Source: Mobula hypostoma | Taxonomy: Eukaryota | Assembly: GCF_963921235.1 (NCBI RefSeq) | Contig: NC_086097.1 | Span: 35,342,001-35,406,000, forward strand | Direction: 5' to 3' | Length of the DNA stretch: 64,000 bases | Shown: positions 1,961-58,713 of the stretch, in pieces | How the letters are laid out: every line of letters begins with the position of its first letter | Position numbering within the stretch: position 1 is the first letter of the stretch | Notes under the pieces: model-generated | Databases searched by the model: none | Told to the model about the DNA's origin: nothing | Seen by the model: the letters and a program-made list of their open reading frames with translations, nothing else | Made by a program: the position numbers and the translations under genes

Positions 1961-2354
1961 ATATTGTCAAGAGTAGAATACGTTTAGGAAAACCAAAGAT
2001 GGGAAGTGCTCAAATACTTTGGAGTTTAACGGGGTGAATGGAGATCAGAGAGATAAGTGGGAACAAAGCAGTTGGAAATGAAAGGGACTTTTTCATCCCA
2101 ATGCATCACTTATCAGAAGTAAAGGTGAGAATAGGAAACCAATAGCAGTTTTGAAGAGTTAAGCAAGGGGTGCCAGCTATGATTGCAGTAGTCAGATCCA
2201 CAGAAGAATGGGAAGAATTTCAGCAGCAAATTACTGTGACATGAACGAGCTCATGGAGGGGAACGTAGTCTTAATGGGAGGATGGATATGTTCTGAAATT
2301 CGGCTTTGGGTATGGCACCAAAGCTGTGACCAATTTGGTTCAGTTCCTGATAGT

Positions 2355-2683
2355 TTACTGCTGCTGGCATTTAGGGCAGCAATGAAGGTTCTCCTTTTCT
2401 GGCGATGTTTAAGGCTTCCTTTATCACGTTAGTAGCTTCCTCTCAGATTTCACCACTGTCAGTCATGTAACTCCCGGTGGAGACTCAGGAATACCATCAC
2501 AAGCAGATGTAGAAGGATTCTTTGCTTTTCCCATAAAAATTTTGCTTTATCACTCAGAGTTGTTAGCCCTGAGCTGAACCCCCGAACCTGGAGGACTGGT
2601 GGACCACTTTTAATCTGGCCTCTTCGGGTCATTGAAGCATGCAAGCCTCCAAACTACAATAAATTTGTGGTCCTCTTGGAGGT
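2355..2683. repeat. Interspersed repeat, probably RTE-related (copy 1)
   Basis: Shares ctgtcagtcatg, ggtggagactcagga, gttgttagccctgagctgaacccc and tgtggtcctct with 49665-50036 in the same orientation. Family label is from memory only. Confidence 0.6.
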
Positions 2684-5239
2684 CAGTTCCTCATAGGGTG
2701 CGAGATTATTTTAGTGGCAAAGGAAGAGTGTTTGAATGGTCACTGAAGATATTTTATCTGGATAAAATTTGTGATCTTTTATTAAAGATCTCTTGAAGAT
2801 TTCTGAAATGATTCATCAGCATAAAAGCTGTCCTTTCCTTTTCACCGATAGTATTATTTTTGGGATTACTCCATAGGTCAAGGTGAAAATATATTTTAAG
2901 GATACGGATTTCTTAACTCGAAGAACTGAGTATTATAATCTGTAGTAAATTAAAGTCTTCTCTGTTATTTAAATTGCTGACAACATACCGCCACTTCATA
3001 TTGTTTACTTCAAATCATTAAGTGTTTTGCTTTTTTAGTTTTGTAATCAATTCTACCCTTGGCTCAGAAACCATTTTAAATTGTGATATTTTGATGTTCC
3101 ACCCTCAGATCTGGAGGAATTGCGTTTAGATTGTTGTAATGCAAACTGCCAAGCAAATAGTTCAAGGATCAATATTTATTGCAAAGGCTAGGCAGTCTGT
3201 GGCCATTAACAGAGATGTGAATTATTGCCTTGTTGTCATGAGTGTCATTGAAGAATTACCTTGAGGGATTTACGAAGCCTAACTTAATGAAGGCTGCAAT
3301 AGCACAAATGCGACAGAGGATTGCCCTCTGTTTCTGATCTCATCTCCAGAAAAGAGAATGGGGTAGGCAGCAGCATGAAATGGCTTCAATTATGTGATGA
3401 GTTTCCTGGTTAATGACATTTCATTGAAAGCCTCAAAAGAACAATAATGAGGTGATTCTTATTGGCTGTGTTTGCTTGTCTGAAGGGACCATTTTTGATG
3501 CTCAAGTCCTGGACTTGTGCAGACCAGTTGCAATGCCAGGAGTTACTAAATGGCAGAGGTGTTTACTATGCTCCTTGGCTGTGATTTTTCAGTATTACAT
3601 TGGGGAATTGTCACTCCGATCCTAGACCAGGTCAGACCTGTCACAGGATCTCAATTCATTGGTGATTCCATGACTAAGGGAAGTATTTGTTTTCTTATTT
3701 TTTAAACAACTTAAATCCTTTAAATTTTATTTGATCAATTCTATTAGTTTTTAATGGCCCTCAATGTCAGAGACATTGAATACCTATTAAAAAGCTAACA
3801 ACACTGTCTTGAGCTTTGTGTCCCTTATCAAAAACTCACAGTGCATTCTGGTGCATTCTATCACCTGAGGCCTAATCCCCGTCTGCACCTCACCACCTGA
3901 CATCTCAAAATAGATTGTTTAGACCTAAGTCAGGTAATTGTGGGCTGGTGTGGACTAAGGGTCATGTCAGTGGACATGATGCCAAAAAATCTGTCCTAAT
4001 TATAATTGAAAATTATTTTAATGATATACTCTATGAATTCAATTTGCATACCACATTTGAACTTTCAAGCTTCCCTCTCACAAGCCAGTCTGTCCATTCA
4101 CTGCTTGAGCTGTCCAATCTAAAAGTTAGTGATGGGCAGATTTTGCATTCCATGGCAATCATACCAGCACTACTTTGAACAAACTTGCAGTTGTCCATGG
4201 ATGTTTGTTCTGAAAAAATTTGAGAATGAGAAAACCATTTTAGAGTGACACTCTCTACATGAGATCTGAGACTTGAGTAAGCAGTGAAGCTTCTTAACCA
4301 AACAGACTGAAGAATCCTTGTTGAAGTCAGTGGAGTCTGAACCAAGTTATATTAGCCGGAAGCCTGTAATCTCTATTATGTTGCTTTGCTTTTCTTTGGC
4401 AGAGTTGACTTCAACTCAGCACAGCCTGAGTCTTTCTAATCCTTCATCCAGGTTTATTGACAAAGAAGTCAATGCTACTAACAAAATTGATCATATCCTG
4501 AAGTCAAATTAATGACCATTGGTAATTTCTGCATGCTGCCAATCTGTAAACCTTCAAGACAATAAACTAATTATACTGGTACATCTGGGTACAAGGGGAA
4601 TGTTAGATACTGCTTAGAACATTGAGTATATTTTTTTATTTTAATTATTTCAAAGGTTCATTTAATATCGGGGAATGGATACAGTATACAATCCGAAACT
4701 CGTACTCCTCACAAACATCCATGAAACAAGAAACCCCCATAGAGTGAATGATAGAATATCAAAGCCTGAAGCCTCCCCTCCCCACTCTCTATTCGTCCGT
4801 GAAGTTGACTGTTGCATCCCAATGTAATATGACATTGATTCTGTATATTTTTAGGAGGTACAATCAATGGATTATCTTCCAGCTACTTAATTGATAGTTT
4901 GATTAAGAAGTTTACAGTACTGTTTTTATTGCATTTTTTAATTTTAAATTTATTTTCATTGATATTAATGAAACAGCATCAAGCTACCACTCTTAAATAT
5001 ACCAAGGAATAGTTTGTAATACAAATTTTAAGAAATGCAAAATGGTATTTAGAAACAAAATTCATTTGCACGGGCTCATGGCAGATTTTGCATTTGAGAC
5101 CGTGTCTAACAGTTCGTCTGTGCACAACTTGCAAGTATGCTATATTTAAATCAATACAAAAGCATGAGTTGAGAGTGAAATAAAGGCAGTAAAGAAAGAT
5201 GAGATTATTAAATTGATGAAGTGGAGGCATGGTTGTGGT

Positions 5240-5995
5240 CTTCAACTGCCGAGTAATTTTGATCAGATAGTAAATTGTGCAGGGCAATGGCAGTTGGAAT
5301 TTAACCCTGATGGGTGTGACATGGTGCTTTTAGGGTCAATGATTAGTATGGTCCTAGGGAATATAGAAGAACAAGAAAACCTTAATGTATCAGACCTAAG
5401 AAAGAGGCCACACAGGTACCGTAGATAAAGTGGCAAAAGTAAGGTTTAAAAGTATGCTTGCTTTCATTTAGCCTGAGCACAGAATATAAGTGGAGAGAAG
5501 GCTTGTTGAATTTTATTAAACATTGGTTGAACCCCAGCTGGAATATTGTGTGTAGTTCTGGTCATCACTCCATAGGAAGCATGTAATTACAGCGGGAAGG
5601 TTGTAGAAGTGTTCCAGCAGGATGCGGCCTGGAATATAGAATATTTCAGTTAAGAGGAAAGACTAGATTAACTGGGCTTGTTTTCCTACAGCCAGAGGAG
5701 GCTGAGGGAGGCCTGATAGATTTGTATAGAATTATGACATAGATAGATTGAAATCTTTTTCCCCAAAGTGTAGTTTTAATGTGAGGAGTAAGTGGTTGAA
5801 AAGGGATTCTGACTACAATATTTTTTTCCACCCGGGGTGTGGTTGCAACCTGGAAAGTACTGCCTGTGAAGTTGCTCAAGACAGGTACTCATAGATTTGT
5901 GCAGCCCTATAGTACCAAAGCATACTGACCAAGTTAGGTACTCGATAGTTGGCAGGGAGACAGTGGTTGGGGGGGCCTGTTTCTGTGCTGTACAG
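5240..5995 (+). mobile_element. Old CR1 LINE 3' fragment
   Basis: Remnants WQLEFNPD.C and tattgtgtgtagttctggtc (YCV.FWS); 3' end ggcctgtttctgtgctgta. Confidence 0.8.
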
Positions 5996-7184
5996 CTCTG
6001 AAAGTTAAATATTTGTTATTTAATACTTGCAATCTTTTAAAATCTCCAATAAACATTAAAGTGGGCTTCTAAAAGTTAATCTTTAGTAATGGACAGATAA
6101 TTAATGTTGAGGATATACTGTACTTGTATGAACATGCCATAATTTTCTTCTGGCCAGATTACTGATGTCCATAATTTAAATTCTACATCTTTATAACCTT
6201 CCATTCATCTGAATGCTGAATCTCCTGTCAAAGCTCTGTTACGTTCAAAGGGAGTTGGCTACAAATCTGAAAGGAAAGAATTCACAGGGCTGTGGGAAAA
6301 ACATAGGGAGGTAGGACTAACTGGATTGCTTTTGCTTCAAGCTGATTCAGACTCATATAGCCAAATGCTGTAATCATTCAGTGGTTCTACTGCAAAGAAG
6401 CAGGGAGAAATGAACAGTAGTTTACAAATGTATTAACCTGCACAGGTGTGCTACTTGGAGTTATTTAACTGCAAAGTCTAGGCTAAGCATTTCACTCCAA
6501 ATCAAGATAGTGTACAGCATGTAGGTAGATATTCACTCCTTTTGCAAGAAAGTTATTGATTTTTTAGTTTGTTAATGAAGAAAACTCTTAAAATATTTTA
6601 TATTTATTTAACAAAATGGCACCTGAATTTATCCTTTGCACAATCAGTGAAAGGCACTCTCCTTAGTGACAAATACAGAGGAAAGTAATAAAATTCTATT
6701 AATGTTCCGTTTATACTTTCAACAAGCTAAAATGCCAATTCAACAGTGTGAATGATGAAGGAAGTAAGTGGTCCAGTTTCAGCACCAGCAAATGTAGGAG
6801 CCTAATGGATCCTCGGAACTGAAGGATAAATGATTATAGCCTCAAGCTTGTAACTTTAATCTTTCTACTGTAATCTGTAACTGGTGCTGAAACTGTGAAA
6901 TCCAAAATGCTGCAGTAGGAAATCTTCTTGAAATTTAAGTCCAAACCTTACAAACCATAAAATTCAACAATAAACTAACAGTTTACTACCACCATCAATA
7001 GTTCATGAGCTGAACCAGAAAAAGATCATAATATCTGTGCACACTTTATATCCTATTGCTTTGTAATTGCAAATTTTATTTTCTCCCAATAAAAGAAAGC
7101 TTAACAGATCACTTCTTGAAATTGTTTGTTAATTTTAAGTCTCCAGTGCTACTATACTCTACAAACTACATTGCATTTTAAATA

Positions 7185-8026
7185 CAATGGATTTCAATCA
7201 ATTGGGACATATCGGGCACGGTACATTTTGGACCAATTAAGTGGCTGCCCCAATTAGCCGAAGTTTCATGGAAATATTTAAAAAGATATAAATAGAACAA
7301 ACTACTCTTTAATTAAGTAACAAATTATGTACTTAAATGAAATACAGAACAAATTAGAATATTAGCAAAACTACCATAGTATACAAAATTGCATATTGGT
7401 TCTCAACAGTCATCAGTGGAGGAATTCATCCAGACAATGTATACTGCTATGAACTTTAGATGTTTTTTACAGATTAGACTGCAAAGTCAATCTAAAATCA
7501 GCACAGACACCTAGTGCAGATAATGGAATGTTTTTGACGATTGCATCTTCCAAATCTACATTTTCATTGTAACATTCAAGATTATTGTCAATACCTTTAA
7601 ATTCTTTGTAGCTCTTGATTTGTTGGAGTAGTGTAATTGTTTCATTTTCACTCTTGGCTGTTTCTGGTATCTCCAAGCATGAACGTTTGAAACTTTAGTG
7701 AACAAAACAGTTCTGAATTATCTTACTGCTTCTTTCTTGTCGACTATCAATTACAAAAGCACTGTTTTTTTGAATACAGACAAACTGTATATAAACATTA
7801 TTCAGTCTAAGCATGGTGTAATGTCTCGTGGCCACGCTGGTGCATGTGACTGATGTTAATCAGAAACTATTTGGCAACAATCTCCTGCCTCAATGAAGCG
7901 GTATAGTGTTCCAGACAAAAGAAGGCAATCCTGACTATTTTCTCAATTAGTTTGTGTTCTTTAACTGGTGTCCCAAATAAGTGGCTGCCCTGATTAATCA
8001 ATGGCCCAATTAACCGGACTCCACTG
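7185..8026 (-). mobile_element. Non-autonomous Tigger/pogo-like DNA transposon (copy 1)
   Basis: TA at 7183-84 and 8027-28. TIRs CAATGGATTTCAATCAATTGGG and CCCAATTAACCGGACTCCACTG. Interior is homologous to 43746-44591 in opposite orientation. Confidence 0.82.
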
Positions 8027-10002
8027 TAGTTTTTGGGCTCTGAACATATTTCTCCAGTATGAATGGTCAAAGTAGAGATGCCTTATCAGCTACTCAAAAT
8101 TGGAGTTGCTTTCCTTTTTTGAAACAATCAGATAGAAGCACAGTTTGGAGTAAGATGCTGAAATAATCATGAACTGCAGTTCCTCATGGCGGATGGTTTC
8201 TGCTCTCAGAGCTCACTGAGTGGCCTAGCATTATCGATATCTCCAGGAGTGGCCAGGAGAATGTGTGCCTCTGGAATGTGGTCCTGTGGCACTGTGGACA
8301 ACCTGATTCCTAGCTGGTGTCGCTGACTGAAGATTGTGGGAGATCAGAACAGTGTCTCACAATCCTTGCTGTACCACAGATCCTCCAGTTAGAAGAACAT
8401 AAATCGCAAAGGTGGTGCTGACTCTTTACACTGTCACAAGATTGGCTAATGTATGTTGACAGTGCAAATGTGGAACATACAGGATAACTGTAATCCTGTG
8501 ATCTGGTGATGACTGGTATGAATAAGATCATCTGCAGTATGTATGACTCAACTAGCACAAGCCATCCATCTTGATCAAATGATTAATGTTGACATAAGCT
8601 CATTGGAATACAGGCTTGGAGGTACGTCCATGATAAATTGTGGTGCTGGAAGGGGCTGAGATCTTGATCAAAAGAATATTTTATGGCCCATCATCAAACC
8701 TTTGACAAAATTCTATCTCAAATTTACATTACAATTCCATGCAAAATCAAGTTGTCAAAATGATTCGATGCATACCATACAAAATATAATAAGTATTAAG
8801 ATACATTTTAAGTTCAGTGCTGAAGAACCCAATTTCTAGGCAGTTCTTCCATCTGCTGCCATCATTACAATTGACATAAGTAACCCTGCTGTTTACCTGG
8901 TATCTCTCTGCCCCATTCTCGGGTTTTCTTTATCAGGCAGAAATTCATTTTCATCAATCATAAAATAAAGAGAACATAATATTTTCAATCGTGTACAGGT
9001 TGATGTGATTTGTTTCCCTTTCAAGTCCATACCGAGTTTCTGAACTTCCCTTCACCTGTAGCTCACTGATGGATTATAGGTTGTGACGGAATGATCATTA
9101 CAGGTGCATTCTGGACATTTCACGAGCAGTGTTGTATGTCATTAAACTAGTAGCTTGAAGATCTAATGCATGCACCATTTTATATTTAAAATCTACAACA
9201 GTCACCAACTTAAAGTAAAATTAAAGCATACATTATTTATCCTGCATTAATACATAATCATACAATGATATTGTTAAAGTGGTGTAATCTTTGTAAGAAT
9301 CATGGAAAAAGAAAAAGATTTTCCAAAGTTTAACTGTTCATTTGTAATCTTTGCTCTCAATGAAAAATTGCCCCCTTAAATAAATCCATTTGTCATGAAA
9401 ATCAAGCTTCTTGAACGTTTTTAACCCATTTCTAGGATGTGTACTGTAAGTTTATCTTTCATCACTAATTCATCCACTGTCAGTAAACCAAGTGAAAGTT
9501 ATTAACAGTGACTGTAATTTATGCTTGGCTAGTTATTAAAATATTAGGTACATATTTAATCAGTTGTTATTGCACACTTGCAATTCACTATGTGATCACA
9601 ACTCATCTGCCCCAAGCTATTAATTCAATACAGGATCAGAGGTCAATAAACATGATTTTATAGTACGTTAAGAAATTGGACAGTAGGACATTGCAGAACA
9701 GCAGCAAGTAGACTTTTTACTTAGATTGCCACACATCACATCACATCAGCAAAATGTATTACCTGCAAAGCTAAACAGTTTGTGCCAGAGGCAACTTTTA
9801 ACAGTTAACTGTTGTAGCAGTCCACAAAAAGATTTTCAATGACATTCATAACCTCATCCTGGAAATGTCTGATGGAAGGAACCCTGTGGGTTTCTGTTCT
9901 TGGTTGCACTACCATGCGGAGTGTGCCACGTAATGGGAAGGCAACATGGGGAGCTCTGAGGGGCATGTGGGGCATATTTGAGGTTCTTCTCAGACTGTAT
10001 AT

Positions 10003-13659: not shown

Positions 13660-14020
13660 ATTTCAGAATTCACCCTTCTCTTCTCATCTGCCCATCACCT
13701 CTCTTTGGTTCCCCTCCTCCTTCCCTTCCTTCCATGGTGCATTGTCCTCTCCTACTAGTTTCCTTCTTCAGCCATTTACCTCTTCCACCTACCCCCTTAT
13801 ACTTCATCTGCCCTCCCCCACCCACCCACCTTCCTCCTCACCTGGTTTCACCTATCCACCCACCAGCTTGTACTGCATCCCTTCCTCCCACCTTCTTATT
13901 CTGACTTCTGTCCCTTTCCTTTCCAGTCCTGATGAAGGCTTTCTGCCTAAGATGTTGACTGTTTATTTGTCTCCATGGATACTGCCTGACCTGCTGAGTT
14001 CCTCCAGCATTTTGTGCAAG
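13660..14020 (+). mobile_element. Penelope-like element 3' fragment with decayed hammerhead (13924-13961)
   Basis: Pyrimidine-rich 3' UTR, then ccagtcctgatgaagg..gttgactg..ctgcctgacctgctgagttcctccagca. Homologous to the region downstream of the GIY-YIG ORF at 53909-54492. Confidence 0.8.
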
Positions 14021-14121: not shown

Positions 14122-14497
14122 TCAACACACACAAAATGCTGGAGGAACGCAGGGGGCCTGGCGGCATCTATGGAAAAAAGTAAACGGTCCACGTTTCGGG
14201 CCGAGACCCTTCATCAGGACTGGAAAGTAAAAGTGAGAAGGTGGGGAGGGGAGGAAGAAGTACAAGGTAGTAGTTGAAAGGTGAAACCAGGGGGTGAAGA
14301 AAAGAGCTGGGAAGTTGATTGGTGAAAAAGATAAAGGGCTGGAGAAGGGAAATCTGATGGAAGAGGACAGAAGGCCGTGTAAGAAAGGGAAGGAGGAAGA
14401 GCAGCAGAGGGAGGTGTTGTGCAGGTGAGAGAGGGAAATGGGAATGGGGAATGGTGAAGGAGGGGGAGGGCATACCGGAAGTTCAAAAAATCGATGT
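14122..14497 (-). mobile_element. Penelope-like element 3' fragment with near-intact hammerhead (14185-14222)
   Basis: Starts at the ORF end (IDF.NFR). Minus strand reads CAGTC CTGATGA AGGGTCTCGGCCC GAAA CGTG GACCG, so the cleavage triplet is mutated to GUG. Confidence 0.85.
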
Positions 14498-26600: not shown

Positions 26601-26780
26601 TAATTTTGCATACCTCTATAAAATCTTCCCTCAGTCTTCTAAATTCTAGGGAATAAATTCCTAAACCATTCAACCTTTCCCTGTAACTCAGTTCTTCAGG
26701 TCCTGGCATTATCCTTGTAAATTTTCCCTGTCCTCTTTCAATCTTATTGACATCTTTCCTGTAGGTGGGTGCCCAAAACT

Positions 26781-26935
26781 AGGGTCTCGGCCTGAAACGT
26801 GAGTCCTGACGAAGGGTCTCCATCTGAAACGTCGACTGCACCTCTTCCTAGAGATGCTGCCTGGCCTGCTGCGTTCACCAGCAACTTTGATGTGTATTGC
26901 TTGAATTTCCAGCATGTGCAGAATTCCTGTTGTTT
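26781..26935 (+). mobile_element. Penelope terminal-repeat insertion nested in CR1, with 1.5 hammerhead copies
   Basis: Interrupts CR1 sequence cccaaaact|gcaaaatactt. Near-identical to the reverse complement of 53909-54008. Confidence 0.85.
26802..26837 (+). ncRNA. Minimal type I hammerhead ribozyme motif; core intact, helix II weakened
   Basis: AGTC CTGACGA AGGGTCTCCATCT GAAA CGTC GACT. Confidence 0.6.
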
Positions 26936-37646: not shown

Positions 37647-38095
37647 ACAAGAGATTCTTCAGATGCTGAAAATCTTGAGCAACAGATGTAAAATGCTGGA
37701 AGAACTCAGTAAATCAGGCAGCGTCTATGGTGGGGGAATAAATAGCCCATGCTTCAGGCCAAGACCCTTTATCAGGACTGGAATGGAAGGGAGAAGAAGC
37801 CAGAATAAGGAGGTTGCAGCGATAGGTGAGACCAGGTGAGGGGGGAGATGTGTGGGTGAGGAATGGGGAATAAAGTAAGAAGCTGCAAGGGGATAGGTGG
37901 ATATGGTACGGGGCTGAAGAAGGAGCAATCTAATAGGAGAGGACAGTGGACCATGGAAGAAAGGGGTGGAGGAGGAGAGCCAGAGGGAGATGATGGGCAG
38001 ATAAAGAGAGGAGAAGGGGCGAGAGGGTAACCTCAATGGAGAATGGAAAAGGAGTAAAGTGAGGACAAGAAATTACTGGAACTTGGACAAATCGA
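37647..38095 (-). mobile_element. Penelope-like element 3' fragment with decayed hammerhead (about 37745-37780)
   Basis: Homologous to 14122-14497; gcttcaggccaagaccctttatcaggactgg. Confidence 0.8.
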
Positions 38096-50036: not shown

Positions 50037-53000
50037 GAAGGGCAAATAGGGACGCGCCTTAGTTGCCAGCCTTATAGTAATCCAATGAATTAACAAATAA
50101 AAAATCAGCTGTTGCTTTGTGTGAACGTTGTTACTGCTTGAATTGGCACTTTTGAAGTAAATCAATAGTCCAGGGTGTTCTACAATGAAATTTGTTTTAG
50201 AAGCTCTATTAGGAGCTTTATATCAGTGGACTCTATAAAAGGTCTTAGATACAGGAAGTTCCTAATTTTCTCTCACTGCAGACACGTTGGAATCATGAAT
50301 CTTTCATGCTGTGAGAATCTGCTGTACTTGGCATAGAAATTCACTGTCATAAACAATAAATTTAAACTGTAAGTGTCGACAATACGGTGAAAATTAATCC
50401 AATCTGTACCTTGCACCAGTCAAAACCTTGAAAAACATCTGTGAGCTGGAAATTAACCTTTCACATAATTGCTAGAGAAGATGTTAGTTTATGGCTCTCA
50501 AGCTGTTTTCACAAATTGTTAATTGTGTAACCTGTAAGCAACACATCGTTTTAAAGCATCTACCTACCTCACCAGGGGTTGCCGTCTTCTTGAAATCTGC
50601 AAATTGCCTAGCAACTGTTCGGTGGACAAGAAGAGATGTGTCAGTGAGGTGCTTCAACCAATTATATCCATTCAGAAGTAACTCCTCTTAAATCCTTTTC
50701 TCCCAAAGACAGGTAGTTTAACTCTACAATATATTTGACAATCCTGATTCCCAAAACTCAATATTCCATGCCTGACGCCCAGTAAGTACATGGTTCCTTT
50801 GATTCATTTCACATATAGTCTCTCACATGCCCTCTCTCATACCTATCGATGTGATTGCTTAATTCTTATCTTCTGGATGCAATAACCTTTCGTTTGATAA
50901 TATTTTTCCTTGTTCGCCTGATTATAAATTAGCCCAATGATCTCCCTAAGGGAAATCCAATATGGTGCCATATATTTTATATATTATATTCTATAGTAAA
51001 CATAAGAACATCTGAAGATGCCACCATATTATGTTCTATGATATTATAGAGAGGCTTCTGTTTTAAAGAAGCCAAAAACATACTACAAGGAAGTGTGCGC
51101 ACCTTAATTCCACAACTTTCAAGTGAACTATTGTTGTTGTATTACAAGGATAGGACAAATAGCTTGAGCTACCAATTAGAACCTGAATGAATTTAGAATA
51201 TTGAACCTGGGACTGGTTTCCCGACTGAAACAAGGACATGCAATTGCGAAGGAAGGAATGCGGTAAAGTTAACTACACGATAATAAGAATTTGGAGATAA
51301 CTTCTTTGCAGATAATCAGACTGAGCGTATAATGTCTGGAGTCTAAAAGAGTGAGTGATCTCATTGAAACTTATAACATTCTGATGGGACTTGACAGGAT
51401 AAAAGAAGGGATGAGTAAACTTTGAATGCTAGGCTAAAATGATAAAAGTTAAACTAATATGGCAGGTGGATGGGAGACAGCATGATAGTGTTGAGGATGC
51501 GCCAACAGGTTTATAAATAGATGATGTAATATGTAATATGAATGCAAGGAAGAACAAGCCGATGATTGGGTACAACTGCAGACAGAACAAAGAGTTAAGT
51601 TATACCACAGGGGTAAAATTCATAAAGGAGAAAAATGCAGGACTGAAGGCGCTGTATTTAAATGTGTGTAGCATTTGGAATAAGGTGGACGAACTTGTGG
51701 TGCAATTAGAGATTGGTCGGTATGACACTATGGGCATCACTGAGATGTGGCTGAAAGAAGGTATTAGTTGGGAGTTTAACACCAAAGGATATACTTTGTA
51801 TTGAAAGGACAGGCAGGAAGGCATAGGTGGTGGTGTGGATCTGTTGGGAGGAGATGGAATTATATCCTTAGAAAGAGGTGACACAGGGTCAGAGAACATC
51901 AAATCTTAGTGGGTGGAGTTAAGAAGCTGTGAGGGTAAAAAAAACATTATGGGAATCATATATAGGCCTCCAAAGAGTAGCCAAGATATGTGGTTGAGAT
52001 TGCAAAGGGAGCTGGAAAGGGCATGTAATAAGGGCAATGTCACAATTGTAATGGGGGACTTCAATATGCAAGGGGATTGGGAAAATCACGTTGATGTCAG
52101 ATCATGAGAGGCAAATTGTTGAATGCCTCCAAGATGGCTTTTTAGAGCAGCTTGTGTTGAGCCCACTTGGGGAAAAGCTATCTTAGATTGGTTGTGGTGT
52201 AATAACTTTTTAGGGAGCTTAACGTAAAGGAACACTTAGGACGCAGTGATCATAATATGATTGAATTCATACTGCAGTTTGAGAGGGAGAAATACAAGGC
52301 ACATGTTTCAGTATCGCAATGGAATAAAGGGAATTACAGAGACATGAGACAGGAGCTCTCCCAAGTGGATTGGAGGAGGATACTGGTAGGGATAATGGCA
52401 GAGCAGAGATGGCTGAGGTTTCTGGGAATAGTTTACAAGGCGCAGGACAGATATGTCCCACAGAAGAGGTTCTCAAATGGCAGGGGTAGGCAACTGTGGT
52501 TGACAAGGGAAGTTAGGACTACAAGGAAAGGACATATGATGTAGCAAAAGTGAGTGGGGAGTTGGATGATTGGGAAACTTTTAAAATCCAACAAAAGGCA
52601 ACTAAAAAACTTTAAGAAGGGAAAAGATGAAATATGAAGCCAAACTAGCCAATAATATAAAGCAGGATACTAAAAGATTTTTCAGTTATATAAAGAGTAA
52701 AAGAGAGGTAAGAGTTGATACTGGACCACTGGAAAATGATGCTGGTGAATTAGTAATGGGGGACAAAGAAATGGCAGACAACCTTAATAAATACTTTGCT
52801 TTTATCTTTACTGTGGAAGACACTAGCTGTATGCCAGAGTCCATGAGTTTCAGGGAGCAGGAGTGAGTGCCATTGCTATTACAAAGGAAAAAGAGCTAGA
52901 CACACTCCAAGATCTTAAGGTGGATAAGTCACCTGGGCCAAATGGACTACATCCCAGAGCCCTGAGAGAGGTTGCTGAAGAGATAACGGATGCATTGGTC

Positions 53001-53908
53001 ATGATCTTTCAGGAATCATTTGATTCTGGCATGGTCCCAGAGGACAGGAAAATTGCAAATGTCACTCCACCCTTTAAGAAGGGAGGAAGATAAAAGAGAG
53101 GAAATTATAGGCCAGTTAGCCAAACCTCAGTAGATGGGAAAGTATTGCGGTCCATTATTAAGGATGAGGTTTCATGGTAATTGGAGGCTAATGATAAAAT
53201 GTCAAAGTCAGCGTGGTTTCTGCAAAGGGATATCTTACCTGACAAATCTGTTAGAATTCTTCGAGGAACTAACAAGCAGGGTAGACAAAGGACAGGCAGC
53301 GGATGTCATTTACTTGGATTTTTGGAAGGCATATGATAAGGTGCCACACATGAGGCTGCTTAACAAGATAAAATCCTGTGGCGTTATAGGAAATATACTG
53401 GGATGGATAGGGGAATGGCTGACAGGCAGGACGCAGCGAGTGGGAATAAAGGGGGCCTTTTCTAGCTGGCAGCCGGTGACTAGTGGTGTTTCTCAGGGGT
53501 CAGCATTGGGACCGCTACTTTTCACATTGTTTGTCAATAATTTAGATAGTGGTATTGATGGCTTTGCGGCAAAGTTTGCGGCTGATACGAAGACAGGCAG
53601 AGCAGAAGCAGGTCCTCTAAGTGCTGAGGAAGCAATGTGATTGCAGCAGGACTGAGACAAAAGTAACAGATAAGAATAATGTGTTGGGAAATGTATGATA
53701 ATGTATTTTGGTAAAAGGAACAATAGTGCAGACTATTATCTAAATGGGGAGAAAATTCAAACATCAGAGATGCAAAGTGACTGAGGAGACCTTGTGCAAG
53801 ACTCCCAGAAAGTTAATTCACAGGTTGAGTCTTTGGTAAAGAAGGCAAATGCAATGTTGACATTTCTTTCAAGGGGAATAGAAAATAAAAACAAGGAGAT
53901 AATGCTGA

Positions 53909-54828
53909 GCAACACACATCAAAGTTGCTGGTGAACACAGCAGGCCAGGCAGCATCAATAGGAAGAGGTACAGTCGACGTTTCAGGCCGAGACCCTTCGT
54001 CAGGACTAACTGAAGGAAGAGTGAGTAAGGGAGTTGAAAGCTGGAGGGGGAGGGGGAGATGCAAAATGATAGGAGAAGACAGGAGGGGGAGGGATGGAGC
54101 CGAGAGCTGGACAGGTGAGAGGCAAAAGGGGATACAAGAGGATCATGGGACAGGAGGTCCGGGAAGAAAGATGGGGGGGGGTGACCCAGAGGATGGGCAA
54201 GAGGTATATTCAGAGGGACAGAGGGAGAAAAAGGAGAGTGAGAGAAAGAATGTGTGCATAAAAATAAGTAACAGATGGGGTACGAGGGGGAGGTGGGGCC
54301 TTAGCGGAAGTTAGAGAAGTCGATGTTCATGCCATCAGGTTGGAGGCTACCCAGACGGAATATAAGGTGTTGTTCCTCCAACCTGAGTATGGCTTCATCT
54401 TTACAGTAGAGGAGGCCGTGGATAAATGTATCAGAATGGGAACGGGATGTGGAATTAAAATGTGTGGCCACTGGGAGATTCTGCTTTCTCTGCTTTTCGC
54501 AGGGATCGCTCCCTACGCGACTCCCTTGTCCATTCGTTCCCCCCCCCATCCCTCCCCACTGATCTCCCTCCTGGCCCTTATCCTTGTAAGCGGAACAAGT
54601 GCTACACATGCCCTTACACTTCCTCCCTCACCACCATTCAGGGCCCCAGACAGTCCTTCCAGGTGAGGCGACACTTCACCTGTGAGTCGGCTGGGGTGAT
54701 ATACTGTGTCCGGTGCTCCCGATGTGGCCTTTTATATATTGGCGAGACCCGACGCAGACTGGGAGATCGTTTTGCTGAACGCCTACGCTCTGTCCTTAAT
54801 AATTATCTGCAGAATTCCTCGTGTTTAC
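53909..54828. mobile_element. Neptune-type Penelope-like element, rearranged, 13-bp TSD
   Basis: + segment encodes CKRNKCYTC..FTCESAGVIYCVRCSRCGLLYIGETRRRLGDRF (Cys linker and GIY-YIG N-half). - segment encodes LPVATHFN..RLEEQHLIFRLGSLQPDGMN (C-half), 3' UTR and terminal repeat. GAGATAATGCTGA at 53896-53908 and 54829-54841. Confidence 0.93.
53971..54008 (-). ncRNA. Intact minimal type I hammerhead ribozyme in the Penelope terminal repeat
   Basis: Minus strand UAGUC CUGACGA A GGGU CUCG GCCU GAAA C GUC GACUG. All core nucleotides are present, helix I is UAGUC/GACUG and helix III is the ACGU palindrome. Predicted cleavage between 53976 and 53975. Confidence 0.82.
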
Positions 54829-55689
54829 GAGATAATGCTGAAGCTTTATAAGACAGTAGTCAGGCCGCACTTGGAGGATTGTGAGCAGTTTTGATCCCCT
54901 TATCTCAGAAAGGATATATTTTCATTGGAGACAGTCCAGAGGAGGTTCACAAGGATGATTATGGGAATGAAAGGGTTAACATATGAGGAACGTTTGACAG
55001 CTTTGGGCCCGTACTCACTGGAATTTAGAAGAATGCGTGGGGATCTCATTGAAATCTTCGGAATGTTGAAAGGTCTGGATAAAGTGGAACTGGAGAGGAT
55101 GTTTCCTCTAGTGGGGGTATCTAGAACGAGAAAGCACAGCCTCAAAACTGAGGGGCAAACTTTTAGAACCGAAGTAAGGAGGAACTTTATTTTTTTATCC
55201 AAAGGGTGGTGAATCTGTGAAATGCTCTGCCACAGATGAGGTGGAGGCCAAGTCCGTGGGTATATTTAAAGTGGAAGTTGATAGATTCCTGATTGGTCGG
55301 GGCATCAAGGGGATATGGTGAGAGGGCAGGTGTATGGGGTAGAATGGGATCCGGGATCAGCCATGATGAAATGCGGAGTGCACTTCATGAGCTGAATGCT
55401 CTATTTCTGCCCCTATGTCTTATGGTCGTATGGTCTTATGGATCGAAGCTGCTGTTGAACCATGATGTAATATGATCTAGAAAGAAAATCTGACAGCTGC
55501 TAACAAAAATTCCCCCAGTCTTCACTCCTTAATATTAGAGTGTGTTTTGCAGACCAGATCAGTGACATAAAGATTCATCTCCTGCCTGTGCCAATAATCA
55601 GAGTAATATAACTGGTCCCAGTATCCTGTGATTGTGTGGAAACCAGCCACATGAATTCCACTCCAGCCAGAAAATAGAGAAGGGAAAGA

Positions 55690-55845
55690 CGCACAAAATG
55701 CTGGAGGAACTCAGTGGGTCAAGCAGCATCTATGGAGAGAAATAAATAGTTGACAATTCAGGCTGAGACCCTTCATCTGCATCTGTTGCCTCCAGCATTT
55801 TGTGTGTGTTATCCCAGATTTTCAGCATCAGTAGAATCTCTTGTG
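55690..55845. mobile_element. Penelope terminal-repeat remnant with inverted halves
   Basis: cacaaaatgctggagg (55692-55707) and cctccagcattttgtg (55789-55804) form a perfect inverted repeat around a decayed hammerhead. Confidence 0.75.
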
Positions 55846-55951
55846 GGAGTAAGGGATGGAATTGGGCTTTGCAGTGAAGCTTCTCAAGTGAAGAGCAGCT
55901 AATTGAACAAGAGATAGTAAGCAAGCTGGCTTCTTCACGTCCAGGAGCCAG

Positions 55952-57447
55952 CATAGGAACATAGAAACATAGAAGATGGGTGCAGGAGTAGGCCATTCGG
56001 CCCTTTGAGCCTGCACCACCATTTAGTATGATCATGGCTGATCATCCAACTCAGAACCCTGCACCTGCCTTCTCTCCATACCCCCTGATCCCTTTAGCCA
56101 CAAGGGCCATATCTAACTCCCTCTTAAATATAGCCAATGAACTGACCTCAACTCTTTCCTGTGGCAGAGAATTCCACAGACTCACCACTCTCTGTGTAAA
56201 GAAGTTTTTCCTCGTCTCAGTCCTTAAAGCCTTCCCCTTTATCCTTAAACTGTGACTCCTCGTTCTGGACTTCCCCAACATCGGGAACAATCTTCCTGCA
56301 TCTAGCCTGTCCAATCCCTTTAGAATTTTATACATTTCAATAAGATCCCCCCTCAATCTTCTAAATTCCAGCGAGTATAAGCCTAGTCGATCCAGTCTTT
56401 CATCATAGGAAAGTCCTGCCATCCCAGGAATCAATCTGGTGAATCTTCTTTGTACTCCCGCCATGACAAGAATGTCTTTCCTCAGATTAGGGGACCAAAA
56501 CTGCACACAATACTCCAGGTGTGGTCTCACCAAGGCCTTGTACAACTGCAGTAGTACCTCCCTGCTCCTGTACTCGAATCCTCTTGCAATGAATGCCAGC
56601 ATACCATTCACCTTTTTCACCGCCTGCTGTACCTGCATGCCCACTTTCAATGACTGGTGTATAATGACACCCAGGTCTCGTTGCACCTCCCCTTTTCCTA
56701 ATCGGCCACCATTCAGATAATAATCTGTTTCCCTGTTCTTGCCACTAAAGTGGATAACCTCACATTTATCCACGTTAAATTGCATCTGCCATGAATTTGC
56801 CCACTCACCTAACCTATCCAAGTCATGCTGCATCCTCCTTACAGCTAACACTGCCGCTCAGCTTTGTGTCATCCGCAAACTTGGAGATGCTGCATTTAAT
56901 TCCCTCGTCTAAGTCATTAATATATATTGTAAACAACTGGGGTCCCAGCACTGAGCCTTGCAGTACCCCACTAGTCACTGCCTGCCATTCTGAAAAGGTC
57001 CCGTTTATTCCCACTCTTTGCTTCCTGTCTGCCAACCGATTCTCTATCCACATCAATACCATACCCCCAATACCGTGTGCACACTAATCTCCTGTGTGGG
57101 ACCTTGTCAAAAGCCTTTTGAAAATCCAAATATACCACATCCATTGGTTCTCCCCTATCCACTCTACTAGTTACATCCTCAAAAAATTCTATGAGATTTG
57201 TCAGACATGATTTTCCTTTCACAAATCCATGCTGACTTTGTCTGATGATTTCACCGCTTTCCAAATGTGCTCTTATCACATCTTTGATAACTGACTCTAG
57301 CATTTTCCCCACCACCGATGTTAGGCTAACCGGTCTATAATTCCCCAGTTCCTCTCCATCTTTTTTTAAAAAGCGGGGTTACATAAGCCACCCTCCAATC
57401 CTCAGGAACTAGTCCAGAATCTAAAGAGTTTTGAAAAATTATCACTA
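55952..57447 (-). mobile_element. Young 5'-truncated CR1 LINE (RT domain and C-terminus)
   Basis: [52 protein letters not shown], a 266-aa open C-terminus, and a (TTTCTATG)n tail. Confidence 0.95.
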
Positions 57448-57835
57448 TATGCCAGCAGCCTGGGGAGTGTGGCAGATAAGAATATACGGGAAAAACAAGC
57501 TTGAGAAATGCGAACAGTAGCTATAACTTAAGGCATTCCTTGTGGATACAATACCATTGAGAAGAAGAGTGTTGTTAATTAACTATAGGTGAAACTATAA
57601 ATAACAGCAGGTTTGAATGCATGTTGCAGGCAAGTCACCTCTTTCACTTGTAATAGGATTTTCTTTTACCTTGGACTCCTCCGGAGTAGCGGAAAATATG
57701 TATGTAAGCTTTTCAGTTAGCTTTCAAAATAAAACAACATTCACCATACCAGCAAGTCTTTGTATGTCAAAGAGTTGTAATTACCGGTGATTATCATCAG
57801 TTGCTGTCTTCTATTTTTTCAAAAAACCGGTGACA

Positions 57836-58713
57836 TCTCGTCATCTTCAGAAGTTTTCGGATGACTCTGCCATAATTGGATGCATCAGCAAGGGAGATGA
57901 GGCTGAGTACAGGGCTACTGTAGGAAACTTTGTCACATGGTGTGAGCAGAATTATCTGCAGCTTAATGTGAAAAAGACTAAGGAGCTGGTGGTAGACCTG
58001 AGGAGAGCTAAGGTACCGGTGACCCCTGTTTCCATCCAGAGAGTCAGTGTGGACATGGTGGAGGATTACAAATACCTGGGGATACGAATTGACAATAAAC
58101 TGGACTGGTCAAAGAACACTGAGGCTGTCTACAAGAAGGGTCACAGCCGTCTCTATTTCCTGAGGAGACTGAGGTCCTTTAACATCTGCCAGACGATGCT
58201 GAGGATGTTCAACGAGTCTGTGGTGGCCAGTGCTATCAGGTTTGCTGTTGTGTGCTGGGGCAGCAGGCTGAGGGTAGCAGACACCAACAGAATCAACAAA
58301 CTTATTCGTAAGGCCAGTGATGTTGTAGGGATGGAACTGGACTCTCTCACGGTGGTGTCTGAAAAGAGGATGCTGTCTAAGTTGCATGCCATCTTGGTCA
58401 ATGTCTCCCATCCACTACATAATGCACAGCAATACATTCAGCCAGAGACTCATTCCTCCAAGATGCAGCACAGAGCGTCATAGGAAGTCATTCCTGCCAG
58501 TGGCCATCAAACTTTACAACTCCTCCCTTGGACGGTCAGACATCCTGAGCCAATAGGCTGGTCCTGGACTTAATTCATAATTTACTGGCATAATTTACAT
58601 ATTACTATTTAACTATTTATGGTTCTACCACTATTTATTATTTATGGTGCAACTGTAACGAAAACCAATTTCCCCCGGGATCAATAAAGTATGACTATGA
58701 CTATGACTATGAC
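57836..58713 (+). mobile_element. Young Rex1-like LINE, 5'-truncated
   Basis: [32 protein letters not shown]; gggatcaataaagt followed by an (ATGACT)n tail. Confidence 0.92.

What the first reader, a model, noticed from the sequence alone, without database searches (positions are those of the whole stretch)
53971..54008. Intact minimal hammerhead ribozyme with extra-A core and loopless palindromic helix III
Seen: the minus strand reads UAGUC-CUGACGA-A-GGGU(CUCG)GCCU-GAAA-C-GUC-GACUG. It has both conserved boxes, a GUC triplet, a 5-bp helix I and helix II, and it lies just downstream of a GIY-YIG ORF end. Known: Penelope-like elements carry minimal type I hammerheads in their terminal repeats that cleave as dimers, and an extra A after A9 occurs in the CChMVd viroid hammerhead. 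Inference: helix III is only ACGU with no loop, so it cannot fold as a monomer and would need two tandem repeats or two RNAs. That would act as a copy-number sensor releasing unit-length element RNA. PLE hammerheads are known in general; I cannot tell whether this chondrichthyan variant is described.
Basis: partly seen in the sequence, partly recalled or inferred. Interest (0 to 1): 0.8.

Follow-up and report, generated by a model that had tools for sequence, protein, structure and literature searches.

The report
Penelope-element minimal hammerhead ribozyme copy
This is a real, intact-looking copy of the small "dimer-type" self-cutting RNA motif that Penelope-like jumping genes are already known to carry, sitting here in a truncated, dead copy of such an element, so it is a correct catch of a known kind.

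Summary
It has both conserved boxes, a GUC site, a 5-bp helix I and a 4-bp helix II. It lies 293 nt after the stop of a GIY-YIG ORF fragment.

It belongs to a Penelope-like element (PLE) that is hugely amplified in this 3.48-Gb genome. The core pattern occurs 90,673 times, against 429 for a reversed control. One copy examined for layout has the motif in both flanking repeats, 3,513 nt apart, around a 1,043-aa RT plus GIY-YIG frame.

Both are published consensus traits of metazoan PLE "min-HHRs", as is the dimer model (Cervera & de la Peña 2014).

The window copy sits in a 921-bp, 5'-inverted, dead insertion with a 12-bp target duplication, so it has no partner in cis.

Contigs from other organisms keep the 38 nt almost unchanged while both flanks differ.

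The "copy-number sensor" idea is untested. The layout of genomic copies suggests that inserted templates were not cut.

Cartilaginous fish are not named in the PLE hammerhead texts I could search. This scan has found PLE hammerheads before, on other genomes.

Verdict: new member of a known kind, low interest.

The parts
53971..54008 (-). Minimal (helix-III-less) hammerhead motif: helix I 5' strand, CUGACGA box, bulged A, helix II GGGU(CUCG)GCCU, GAAA, C-G, GUC, helix I 3' strand. The predicted cut is after C17 (53976).
   Evidence: Sequence; parse asserted; pattern statistics.
53908..53970 (-). Element 'tail' from the motif to the 3' end of this arm (…GATGTGTGTTGCT). Other copies either end here or run on into TGAATTTCCAGCATCTG…, which is the 5' leader of the next unit.
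   Evidence: The repeat boundary is at query position 393 in 40 scored copies. Variable ends are seen in 47 copies. The alignment to L072 covers this stretch.
54009..54300 (-). C/T-rich 3' untranslated stretch between the ORF stop and the motif. It is specific to this element family ('family A').
   Evidence: 97-98% identical in 40 scored genome copies. It differs in other families and in other organisms' contigs.
54301..54492 (-). C-terminal part of the GIY-YIG endonuclease ORF, with its stop at 54301-54303. This is the direct arm of the insertion and matches element positions 4579-5159 of the L072-oriented copy.
   Evidence: ORF list; alignment to L072 at 96.2% over 582 nt; translation of L002.
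54484..54795 (+). Inverted arm: the element segment that lies directly upstream in element coordinates (4268-4576), covering the zinc-finger-like and GIY part of the endonuclease, in the opposite orientation.
   Evidence: 93.3% over 312 nt; ORF 54459..54851 (+).
54796..54828 (+). 9 nt of filler, then 24 nt matching the distal tail of the element (ATCTGCAGAATTCCT…GTTTAC). This is a second 3'-end site, so both ends of the insertion carry an element 3' tail.
   Evidence: Sequence, compared with the tails.
53896..53907 (.). Left copy of the 12-bp target-site duplication GAGATAATGCTG.
54829..54840 (.). Right copy of the 12-bp target-site duplication GAGATAATGCTG.

Best explanation
The 38 nt are a copy of the minimal hammerhead motif (min-HHR) that Penelope-like retroelements carry in each of their flanking repeats.

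In a complete unit of this family, the order is: motif, then a tail of about 65 nt and a leader, then an ORF of about 1,043 aa (stop to stop) with reverse transcriptase and a C-terminal GIY-YIG endonuclease, then a C/T-rich 3' UTR, then the motif again.

One motif cannot close helix III because C15.2 and G16.2 are adjacent. The likely active form is therefore a double hammerhead. In it, the ACGU of two motifs pair to make a shared 4-bp helix III, and each helix I forms between the 5' strand of one motif and the 3' strand of the other. The two motifs could be the two repeats of one transcript or two separate RNAs. Each GUC would then be cut, probably slowly and with help from the element's own protein.

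What is shown here: the sequence anatomy, the element layout, the amplification, and the conservation across families and organisms. What is inferred from published relatives: dimer formation, cleavage and protein assistance.

The copy in the window is part of a 921-bp, 5'-inverted, dead-on-arrival insertion with a target-site duplication. At this locus it has no same-strand partner and most likely does nothing.
For: Anatomy.

Element layout, from one copy (L072): motifs at 1554 and 5067 in direct orientation; a direct repeat 1404-1646 = 4916-5159 at 98.4%; an open frame 1639-4767 of 1,043 aa.

ORF identity:
- YIDD and GIY…YIG-type motifs appear in the translations.
- The Pfam hits are weak: GIY-YIG E = 0.0011 and RVT_1 E = 0.0047, both below the curated cut-offs.
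- There are 571 homologues at E <= 1e-3 among 8,000 scored. The precomputed Pfam domains shown for the 120 listed include PF00078 and, for some, PF01541.

Amplification:
- 90,673 core-pattern matches against 429 for the control.
- 2,316 first-look candidates for the 401-nt stretch, of which 40 were scored at 97-98% identity.
- 17,711 candidates for an RT fragment.

Conservation (contigs of four runs, 40 differing places listed, 32 more not shown):
- Only 2 of the 40 listed places fall inside the 38 nt. One is 53984, U11.1 to C, which restores the canonical G10.1-C11.1 pair; it makes up 71% and 56% of depth in two other organisms. The other is 53999, the free position N7.
- In X9, six places in the 38 nt upstream and two in the 38 nt downstream are changed at more than 80% of depth.
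- Loose ends pile up at 54005-54007 and at 53970, so homology between families is bounded by the motif.

Families: at least three element families with different flanks share the motif.

Literature:
- PMC4209133 describes this architecture and the dimer model.
- PMC11167929 (passages) reports that an Anolis Poseidon hammerhead cut only when the element's protein was present.
Against: - No cleavage data exist for this sequence.
- The nearest-neighbour energy of the double-hammerhead fold of two 38-mers is -11.5 kcal/mol. Two inactive monomer hairpins score -22.0 and an extended duplex -30.3. In the inactive hairpin, GACG of the box pairs with CGUC of the cut site. Such models ignore the tertiary core.
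- This copy and the dominant young subfamily carry G10.1.U11.1 instead of G-C: 33 of 47 sampled copies have T and 14 have C.
- The helices hardly vary between families. There is no two-sided covariation, only one-sided changes that keep pairing: U/C at 11.1, G/A opposite U in helix II, and U/C at 2.5.
- Genomic copies end downstream of the cut site, and the layout copy starts upstream of its 5' motif. Cleavage is therefore not visibly part of the route to insertion. This agrees with PMC11167929, where hammerhead mutants did not affect insertion in vitro.
- No Rfam hammerhead model matches.
Confidence: 0.85

Rival explanations
1. The 38-nt block is conserved mainly as a binding or positioning site for the element's RT-endonuclease protein. 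It lies about 65 nt upstream of the place where reverse transcription starts. On this view the hammerhead-like core is a vestige, or a secondary activity that plays no part in transposition.
For: - The copies share fixed 3' ends 65 nt and about 110 nt downstream of the motif. This fits internal initiation of reverse transcription near the motif.
- The dominant young subfamily carries a weakened G10.1.U11.1 pair. It also carries C7, which extends an inactive hairpin.
- PMC11167929 (passages) reports that hammerhead mutants did not change insertion in vitro, that cutting needed the protein, and that no RNA-seq reads began or ended at the cut site.
Against: - Every catalytic-core position of a hammerhead is kept across at least three families and in contigs of other organisms.
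- PLEs of plants, fungi and protists carry canonical or monomer-stable hammerheads that do cut (PMC4209133).
- A protein-binding role and a cutting role do not exclude each other.
Confidence: 0.1
2. The match to the hammerhead consensus is a chance resemblance inside a repeat, multiplied by the repeat's amplification.
For: - All 90,673 matches descend from a few families, so they are not independent.
- No Rfam model matches.
- There are no two-sided compensatory changes in the helices.
Against: - The motif sits at the position where PLEs of many phyla carry hammerheads, in both flanking repeats (PMC4209133).
- It shows the four extra traits that paper lists as not built into its search: a nucleotide between 9 and 10.1, G10.1-C11.1 in the older variants, a palindromic 15.2-16.2, and consensus families.
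- The block is the best conserved part of the repeat across families and organisms.
Confidence: 0.02
3. The motif belongs to a short non-autonomous tandem element (a non-LTR retrozyme) that makes small circular RNAs, rather than to an autonomous PLE.
For: - A 2026 preprint reports non-LTR retrozymes in its one sampled cartilaginous fish and derives them from PLE repeats (10.64898/2026.07.22.740005; abstract and passages).
- Many copies in this genome are very short.
Against: - The window copy is contiguous with a GIY-YIG ORF fragment.
- About half of the 47 sampled copies have the PLE ORF ending about 300 nt upstream.
- The two close direct pairs that I examined, of the few seen among the 100 listed places, are independent truncated insertions of different families, not tandem units.
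Confidence: 0.03

Closest known systems
min-HHR of metazoan Penelope-like elements (Cervera & de la Peña 2014, Mol Biol Evol, PMC4209133; text read)
   Same: - No helix III or loop 3, with a palindromic 15.2-16.2.
- An unpaired nucleotide between A9 and G10.1.
- A short helix I (4-5 bp).
- Located in both flanking repeats of an RT plus GIY-YIG element.
- Thousands of solitary copies from truncated elements.
- Pairs on opposite strands 100-700 bp apart.
- A proposed dimeric active form.
   Different: - Helix II here is 4 bp, whereas the Schistosoma families have 7-8 bp.
- The dominant young subfamily has G10.1.U11.1 instead of the conserved G-C.
- The copy number (about 90,000 core-intact matches) far exceeds the about 4,000 (coelacanth) and about 9,000 (Xenopus) given there.
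- Cartilaginous fish are named neither in the main text nor in supplementary file 2 (file 1 could not be searched).
Small hammerhead variants of PLEs that cleave as dimers (Lünse, Weinberg & Breaker, RNA Biol 2017). The paper is not held; I know it only from the reference list and summary in PMC6765202.
   Same: A very short stem III, association with PLEs, and dimer-dependent cleavage.
   Different: I could not read the paper, so I do not know whether cartilaginous-fish sequences or this exact variant are among its examples.
Hammerhead of the Anolis carolinensis Poseidon element PAc (Mob DNA 2024, PMC11167929; passages read)
   Same: - A vertebrate EN+ PLE with the motif in the flanking repeat.
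- A characteristic 'tail' and two adjacent 3'-end sites.
- Likely dependence on the element's protein.
   Different: In PAc the ORF starts within the motif (at stem II). Here the first Met of the open frame lies about 135 nt downstream of the cut site.
CChMVd (+) hammerhead with an extra A between A9 and G10.1 (De la Peña & Flores 2001; cited in PMC4209133, otherwise recalled)
   Same: An extra unpaired nucleotide at the same place in the core.
   Different: That is a viroid hammerhead with full helices and tertiary loop contacts that is active as a monomer. It has no relation by descent that I could test.
Double-hammerhead of newt satellite 2 and ASBV (Forster et al. 1988; cited in PMC4209133 and PMC6765202)
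   Same: A weak helix III is completed by pairing of two motifs.
   Different: Those keep a short stem III and a loop. Here nothing is left but the ACGU palindrome.

Membership tests
Hammerhead ribozyme (catalytic core) | C3-U4-G5-A6-N7-G8-A9 box | tested here: met
   CUGACGA at 54003..53997.
Hammerhead ribozyme (catalytic core) | G12-A13-A14 followed by A15.1, with U16.1 and H17 at the cut site | tested here: met
   GAAA at 53983..53980 and GUC at 53978..53976.
Hammerhead ribozyme (catalytic core) | Three helices around the core, including a closed helix III | tested here: not met
   Helix I (5 bp) and helix II (4 bp) are present. C15.2 and G16.2 are adjacent, so a monomer cannot close helix III. 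It is met only in a two-motif model.
Hammerhead ribozyme (catalytic core) | Match to a curated Rfam hammerhead model | tested here: not met
   No hammerhead hit at gathering score or at E up to 10. RF00163 gave 0 matches in the genome, but its control rang nowhere.
Hammerhead ribozyme (catalytic core) | Site-specific self-cleavage after H17 | not testable with these tools
   All four runs laid were contigs, which cannot show RNA ends.
min-HHR of metazoan PLEs | No helix III/loop 3; palindromic 15.2-16.2 | tested here: met
   ACGU at 53980..53977. The same is required by the pattern found 90,673 times.
min-HHR of metazoan PLEs | An extra nucleotide between A9 and G10.1 | tested here: met
   A at 53996. 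It is A in 45 of 47 sampled copies, T in 1 and G in 1.
min-HHR of metazoan PLEs | Conserved G10.1-C11.1 pair | tested here: inconclusive
   This copy has G.U. Among 47 sampled copies, 14 have C and 33 have T. C makes up 71% and 56% of depth in contigs of two other organisms, so C looks ancestral and T derived (the site is a CpG).
min-HHR of metazoan PLEs | Present in both flanking repeats of the element | tested here: met
   L072-oriented copy: motifs at 1554 and 5067; repeat 1404-1646 = 4916-5159. Only one copy was examined.
Penelope-like element (endonuclease-bearing) | Single ORF with a reverse transcriptase followed by a C-terminal GIY-YIG endonuclease | tested here: met
   A 1,043-aa frame with YIDD and GIY…YIG-type motifs. 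The Pfam hits are below cut-off: GIY-YIG 19.6 bits against 22.6, and RVT_1 17.1 against 29.6. Homologues carry precomputed PF00078 and, in some, PF01541. No solved structure matches.
Penelope-like element (endonuclease-bearing) | Partial tandem (pseudo-LTR) or inverted arrangements, 5' truncation, and variable 3' 'tail' | tested here: met
   Direct repeat. Head-to-head inverted partners in 7 of 30 loci and in 8 of 47 sampled copies. Two 3'-end sites. The window insertion has a 12-bp target duplication.
Non-LTR retrozyme | Head-to-tail arrays of short units, each with a hammerhead | tested here: not met
   The window copy is joined to ORF sequence. The two close direct pairs examined are unrelated neighbouring insertions. 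No genome-wide search for arrays was done.

The most novel reading that the evidence does not exclude
The youngest and most prolific subfamily of this element has copies 97-99% alike, many with long open frames. It spreads while carrying a weakened hammerhead. It has G10.1.U11.1 instead of the G-C pair that older families and other organisms keep. It also has C at position 7, which lets GACG pair with CGUC in an inactive hairpin.

If that variant cuts poorly, this genome is a natural experiment. It would show that efficient ribozyme cleavage is dispensable for Penelope-like element amplification in vivo, and that the block is kept for another reason such as protein binding. Alternatively, the wobble may tune cutting down so that full-length, uncut templates survive.
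Probability: 0.2. Interest if true: 0.45.

Novelty: new member of a known kind. Interest (0 to 1): 0.2.

Why it matters
It adds a very large, young family to the known set of Penelope-like-element hammerheads: about 90,000 core-intact copies in one 3.5-Gb vertebrate genome.

It also offers paired natural variants for testing what these ribozymes do for the element, which is still an open question. The variants are C or U at 11.1, and C or U at position 7.

It does not reveal a new kind of ribozyme or mechanism. The window copy itself is an inert fragment.

Tried and rejected
- **Rfam.** Scans at gathering score and at E up to 10 gave no hammerhead hit. The search with RF00163 over the genome found 0, with a control that rang nowhere. 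I do not use this as evidence.
- **Wrong spacing.** My first pattern had the wrong spacing and found nothing. I corrected it.
- **LINE tail idea.** I suspected that a neighbouring CR1/L2-like LINE (ORF 56051-56857, minus strand) owned a related hammerhead-like tail at about 55790. BLAST against other LINE copies showed that the LINE ends near 55953, and that the tail is a separate short insertion of another PLE family. I rejected the idea.
- **Tandem retrozyme reading.** Two close direct pairs proved to be unrelated neighbouring insertions.
- **Expression.** No RNA holder is listed. All 22 runs are kept as contigs, and their kind is a guess. The four runs laid cannot show RNA starts or ends, so nothing can be said on transcription or on cutting in vivo.
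- **Solved structures.** None match the ORF.
- **Energy models.** Nearest-neighbour folding does not favour the double hammerhead. I treat this as weak, because such models ignore the tertiary core.
- **Lünse et al. 2017.** The paper is not held.
- **Formal covariation count.** I did not run one. The helices are nearly invariant, so it would say nothing.
- **Earlier notes of this scan.** There are none on this genome.

Full report
**1.

The minus strand from 54008 to 53971 reads TAGTCCTGACGAAGGGTCTCGGCCTGAAACGTCGACTG.

The stretch contains:
- the CUGANGA box (54003-53997);
- one extra A (53996);
- a 4-bp helix II, GGGU/GCCU, with a CUCG loop;
- GAAA (53983-53980);
- C-G;
- the GUC triplet, with C17 at 53976;
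- a 5-bp helix I (UAGUC/GACUG).

C15.2 and G16.2 are neighbours, so a single motif cannot close helix III.

On the same strand, an ORF fragment with the C-terminal half of a GIY-YIG endonuclease ends with a stop at 54301-54303, 293 nt upstream.

The pattern CTGANGA-N(8-20)-GAAACGTC occurs twice in the window, against 0.00 expected in 100 shuffles. No Rfam family matches, even at E up to 10. This is expected for a motif that lacks helix III. The genome-wide RF00163 search found nothing, but its control rang nowhere, so I draw nothing from it.

**2. What it belongs to**

The window is part of a 3.48-Gb assembly.

Amplification:
- The 401 nt around the motif have 2,316 first-look candidates in the genome. 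All 40 scored are 97-98% identical, and most stop matching at query position 393, which is window 53908.
- The core pattern occurs 45,262 + 45,411 times in the genome, against 214 + 215 for the reversed pattern.

ORF content:
- Oriented copies carry, upstream of the motif, one long frame with RT motifs (…YIDD…) and a zinc-finger-like plus GIY-YIG endonuclease.
- Pfam sees these only weakly: GIY-YIG E = 0.0011 and RVT_1 E = 0.0047, both under the curated cut-offs.
- A search with residues 480-1043 of the frame found 571 proteins at E <= 1e-3 among 8,000 scored. Their precomputed domains include PF00078 and, for some, PF01541. The best named ones are uncharacterized proteins of the shark Chiloscyllium punctatum, at 63-66% identity.
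- No solved structure matches.

Layout, from one copy (L072, read on its minus strand):
- motif at 1554;
- open frame 1639-4767 (1,043 aa stop to stop, first Met at residue 27);
- second motif at 5067;
- direct repeat 1404-1646 = 4916-5159 (98.4%).

This is the pseudo-LTR - ORF - pseudo-LTR layout of a Penelope-like element (PLE), with the two motifs 3,513 nt apart. A search with an RT fragment gave 17,711 candidates. Of the 150 scored, many sit in open frames of 1,043 aa. The family is therefore young. I describe this only; I made no consensus.

**3. The copy in the window is a dead fragment**

- Window 53911-54492 (minus strand) matches element positions 4579-5159 of the L072-oriented copy.
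- Window 54484-54795 (plus strand) matches positions 4268-4576, the piece that adjoins it in the element, but inverted.
- The inverted arm is followed by 9 nt of filler and 24 nt of the element's distal tail.
- The whole 921-bp insertion (53908-54828) is flanked by a 12-bp duplication, GAGATAATGCTG, at 53896-53907 and 54829-54840.
- Both ends of the insertion therefore carry an element 3' tail, which resembles twin priming.

Head-to-head inverted partners are common. They occur in 7 of 30 BLAST-selected loci and in 8 of 47 pattern-selected copies.

The nearest same-strand relative in the window, at 14190-14215, has GUC changed to GUG. The motif has no partner in cis.

**4. Variation among copies**

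I fetched the first 40 places listed by the pattern search. They yielded 47 pattern-matching copies. Among these 47:
- position 7 is C in 37, T in 9 and A in 1;
- the extra nucleotide is A in 45;
- position 11.1 is T in 33 and C in 14;
- helix I has 5 contiguous pairs in 25, 7 pairs in 1, and fewer in 21. Those with fewer are mostly copies truncated or inverted at the motif, or copies of other families.

Most changes are CpG transitions.

I also found copies by their tail alone, which does not depend on the core. Of 95 such copies, 78 keep the core pattern. Among the 29 that were not the reason for fetching a locus, 14 keep it. That is what young, neutrally decaying copies would show. It says nothing about function.

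About half of the 47 copies have the PLE ORF ending about 300 nt upstream. The rest are shorter. At least three families with unrelated upstream sequence and diverged tails share the motif.

**5. Conservation above the flanks**

Contigs of four public runs, from four coded organisms, were laid on 53900-54320 at 80% likeness or more. The kind of run is a guess.

Of the 40 differing places listed (32 more were not shown), only two fall inside the 38 nt:
- 53984, where U11.1 becomes C. This restores the canonical G10.1-C11.1 pair. It accounts for 71% of depth in X9, 56% in X18 and 26% in X1.
- 53999, position N7, which is free to vary in hammerheads.

In X9, by contrast:
- six places in the 38 nt upstream (54015, 54022, 54023, 54030, 54033, 54041) are changed at more than 80% of depth;
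- two places in the 38 nt downstream (53957, 53967) are changed at more than 80% of depth.

Loose ends pile up at 54005-54007 and at 53970, so the homology between families is bounded by the motif itself.

The limits of this evidence:
- The helices hardly vary, so there are no two-sided compensatory changes.
- There are only three one-sided changes that keep pairing: U/C at 11.1, G/A opposite U in helix II, and U/C at 2.5.

**6. How it most likely works**

By analogy with published relatives, two motifs pair through their ACGU to make a shared 4-bp helix III. Helix I then forms in trans between the two motifs. This is inferred, not shown.

Nearest-neighbour energies do not favour that fold:

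| Fold | Energy (kcal/mol) |
|---|---|
| Double hammerhead of two 38-mers | -11.5 |
| Two inactive monomer hairpins | -22.0 |
| Extended duplex | -30.3 |

In the inactive hairpin, GACG of the box pairs with CGUC of the cut site. This fits two published observations: the low in vitro activity of such motifs (PMC4209133), and the finding that an Anolis Poseidon hammerhead cut only in the presence of the element's protein (PMC11167929, passages).

Two features of the genomic copies bear on the role of cutting:
- Copies end about 65 nt (…GTGTGTTGCT) or about 110 nt (…GTTGTTTRC) downstream of the cut site.
- The layout copy starts about 150 nt upstream of its 5' motif.

The RNAs that were inserted therefore carried uncut motifs. 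This agrees with the same paper's report that reverse transcription starts at two internal sites and that hammerhead mutants did not affect insertion in vitro.

**7. Comparison with what is known**

Cervera & de la Peña 2014 (PMC4209133; I read parts 1 and 2 of the four parts of the text) defined the "min-HHR". Its traits are:
- no helix III or loop 3;
- an extra nucleotide between 9 and 10.1;
- a conserved G10.1-C11.1 pair;
- a palindromic 15.2-16.2;
- a short helix I;
- presence in both flanking repeats of PLEs;
- massive numbers of solitary copies, and pairs on opposite strands;
- a proposed dimeric active form.

They report it in the fish elements Xena, Poseidon and Neptune, in the coelacanth (about 4,000) and in Xenopus (about 9,000).

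Cartilaginous fish are not named in the following:
- the main text of that paper, or its supplementary file 2 (file 1 could not be searched);
- any paper found by a full-text search for "hammerhead ribozyme" + "Penelope" + "shark", which returned one review (I did not open it).

A 2026 preprint (abstract and passages) includes one cartilaginous fish with non-LTR retrozymes. Lünse et al. 2017 is not held. I know it only from a review's summary and reference list.

Earlier notes of this scan record the same kind of motif in rotifer and other genomes, judged known there too. They gave me no new lead.

**8. Verdict**

The identification as a PLE dimer-type minimal hammerhead is right. The claimed oddities are the published norm, and the functional idea is untested.

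What is new is modest: a very large, young family in a genome of a group not named in the papers I could search, and a dominant subfamily with a G.U at 10.1-11.1.

Classification: new member of a known kind. Interest 0.2.

Noticed in passing
window 53896-54840: The insertion is twin-priming-like. A direct 3' arm (53911-54492, minus strand) is joined to the adjoining upstream element segment in inverted orientation (54484-54795, plus strand). That arm ends in 9 nt of filler plus 24 nt of the distal element tail. A 12-bp target duplication, GAGATAATGCTG, flanks the whole. Both DNA ends seem to have primed on element RNA, at two different 3'-end sites about 45 nt apart.
   Followed up: partly
window 26780-26901 (+): This is another family-A copy. 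Its core boxes are intact, but helix II is broken (GGGTCTCCATCT). It is preceded directly by a partial duplicate of the motif (GGGTCTCGGCCTGAAACGTg) joined to AGTCCTGACGAA…, which looks like a template-switch junction inside the motif. It runs on past GTTGCT into TGAATTTCCAGCAT…
   Followed up: partly
window 13931-14017 (+), 14124-14215 (-), 37647-37773, 55690-55850 (-): These are decayed copies of a second PLE family. Its tail reads …CCATAGATGCTGCCTGACC.GCTGAGTTCCTCCAGCATTTTGTG. Several are head-to-head inverted pairs. The one at 14190-14215 has GUC changed to GUG, and the one near 55790 has lost GAAAC.
   Followed up: partly
window 55953-57400 (-): This is a CR1/L2-like LINE fragment (RT C-terminal frames at 56051-56857, 56823-57083 and 56971-57378). 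Its 3' end is near 55953, by comparison with five other copies at about 90-92% identity. The hammerhead-like tail next to it is a separate insertion.
   Followed up: yes
window 51517-53640 (+) and 57791-58483 (+): Further non-LTR retrotransposon RT and endonuclease frames, frameshifted into several pieces. The window around the finding is a patchwork of nested retroelement fragments.
   Followed up: no
L071+L019 (G000:C9), joined positions 2980-8102: A 5'-truncated PLE copy (587-aa open frame) is inserted inside another LINE. That LINE's RT frame stops near 4900, and an RNase H-like frame resumes near 6897.
   Followed up: no
L045, L060, L073 (copies): Several 5'-truncated copies begin right at the 5' edge of the motif (…TAGTC/AGTC-CTGACGA). 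None of the 95 tail-identified copies begins at the predicted cut site. This may reflect the reverse transcriptase stopping at the folded motif. It was not tested.
   Followed up: no
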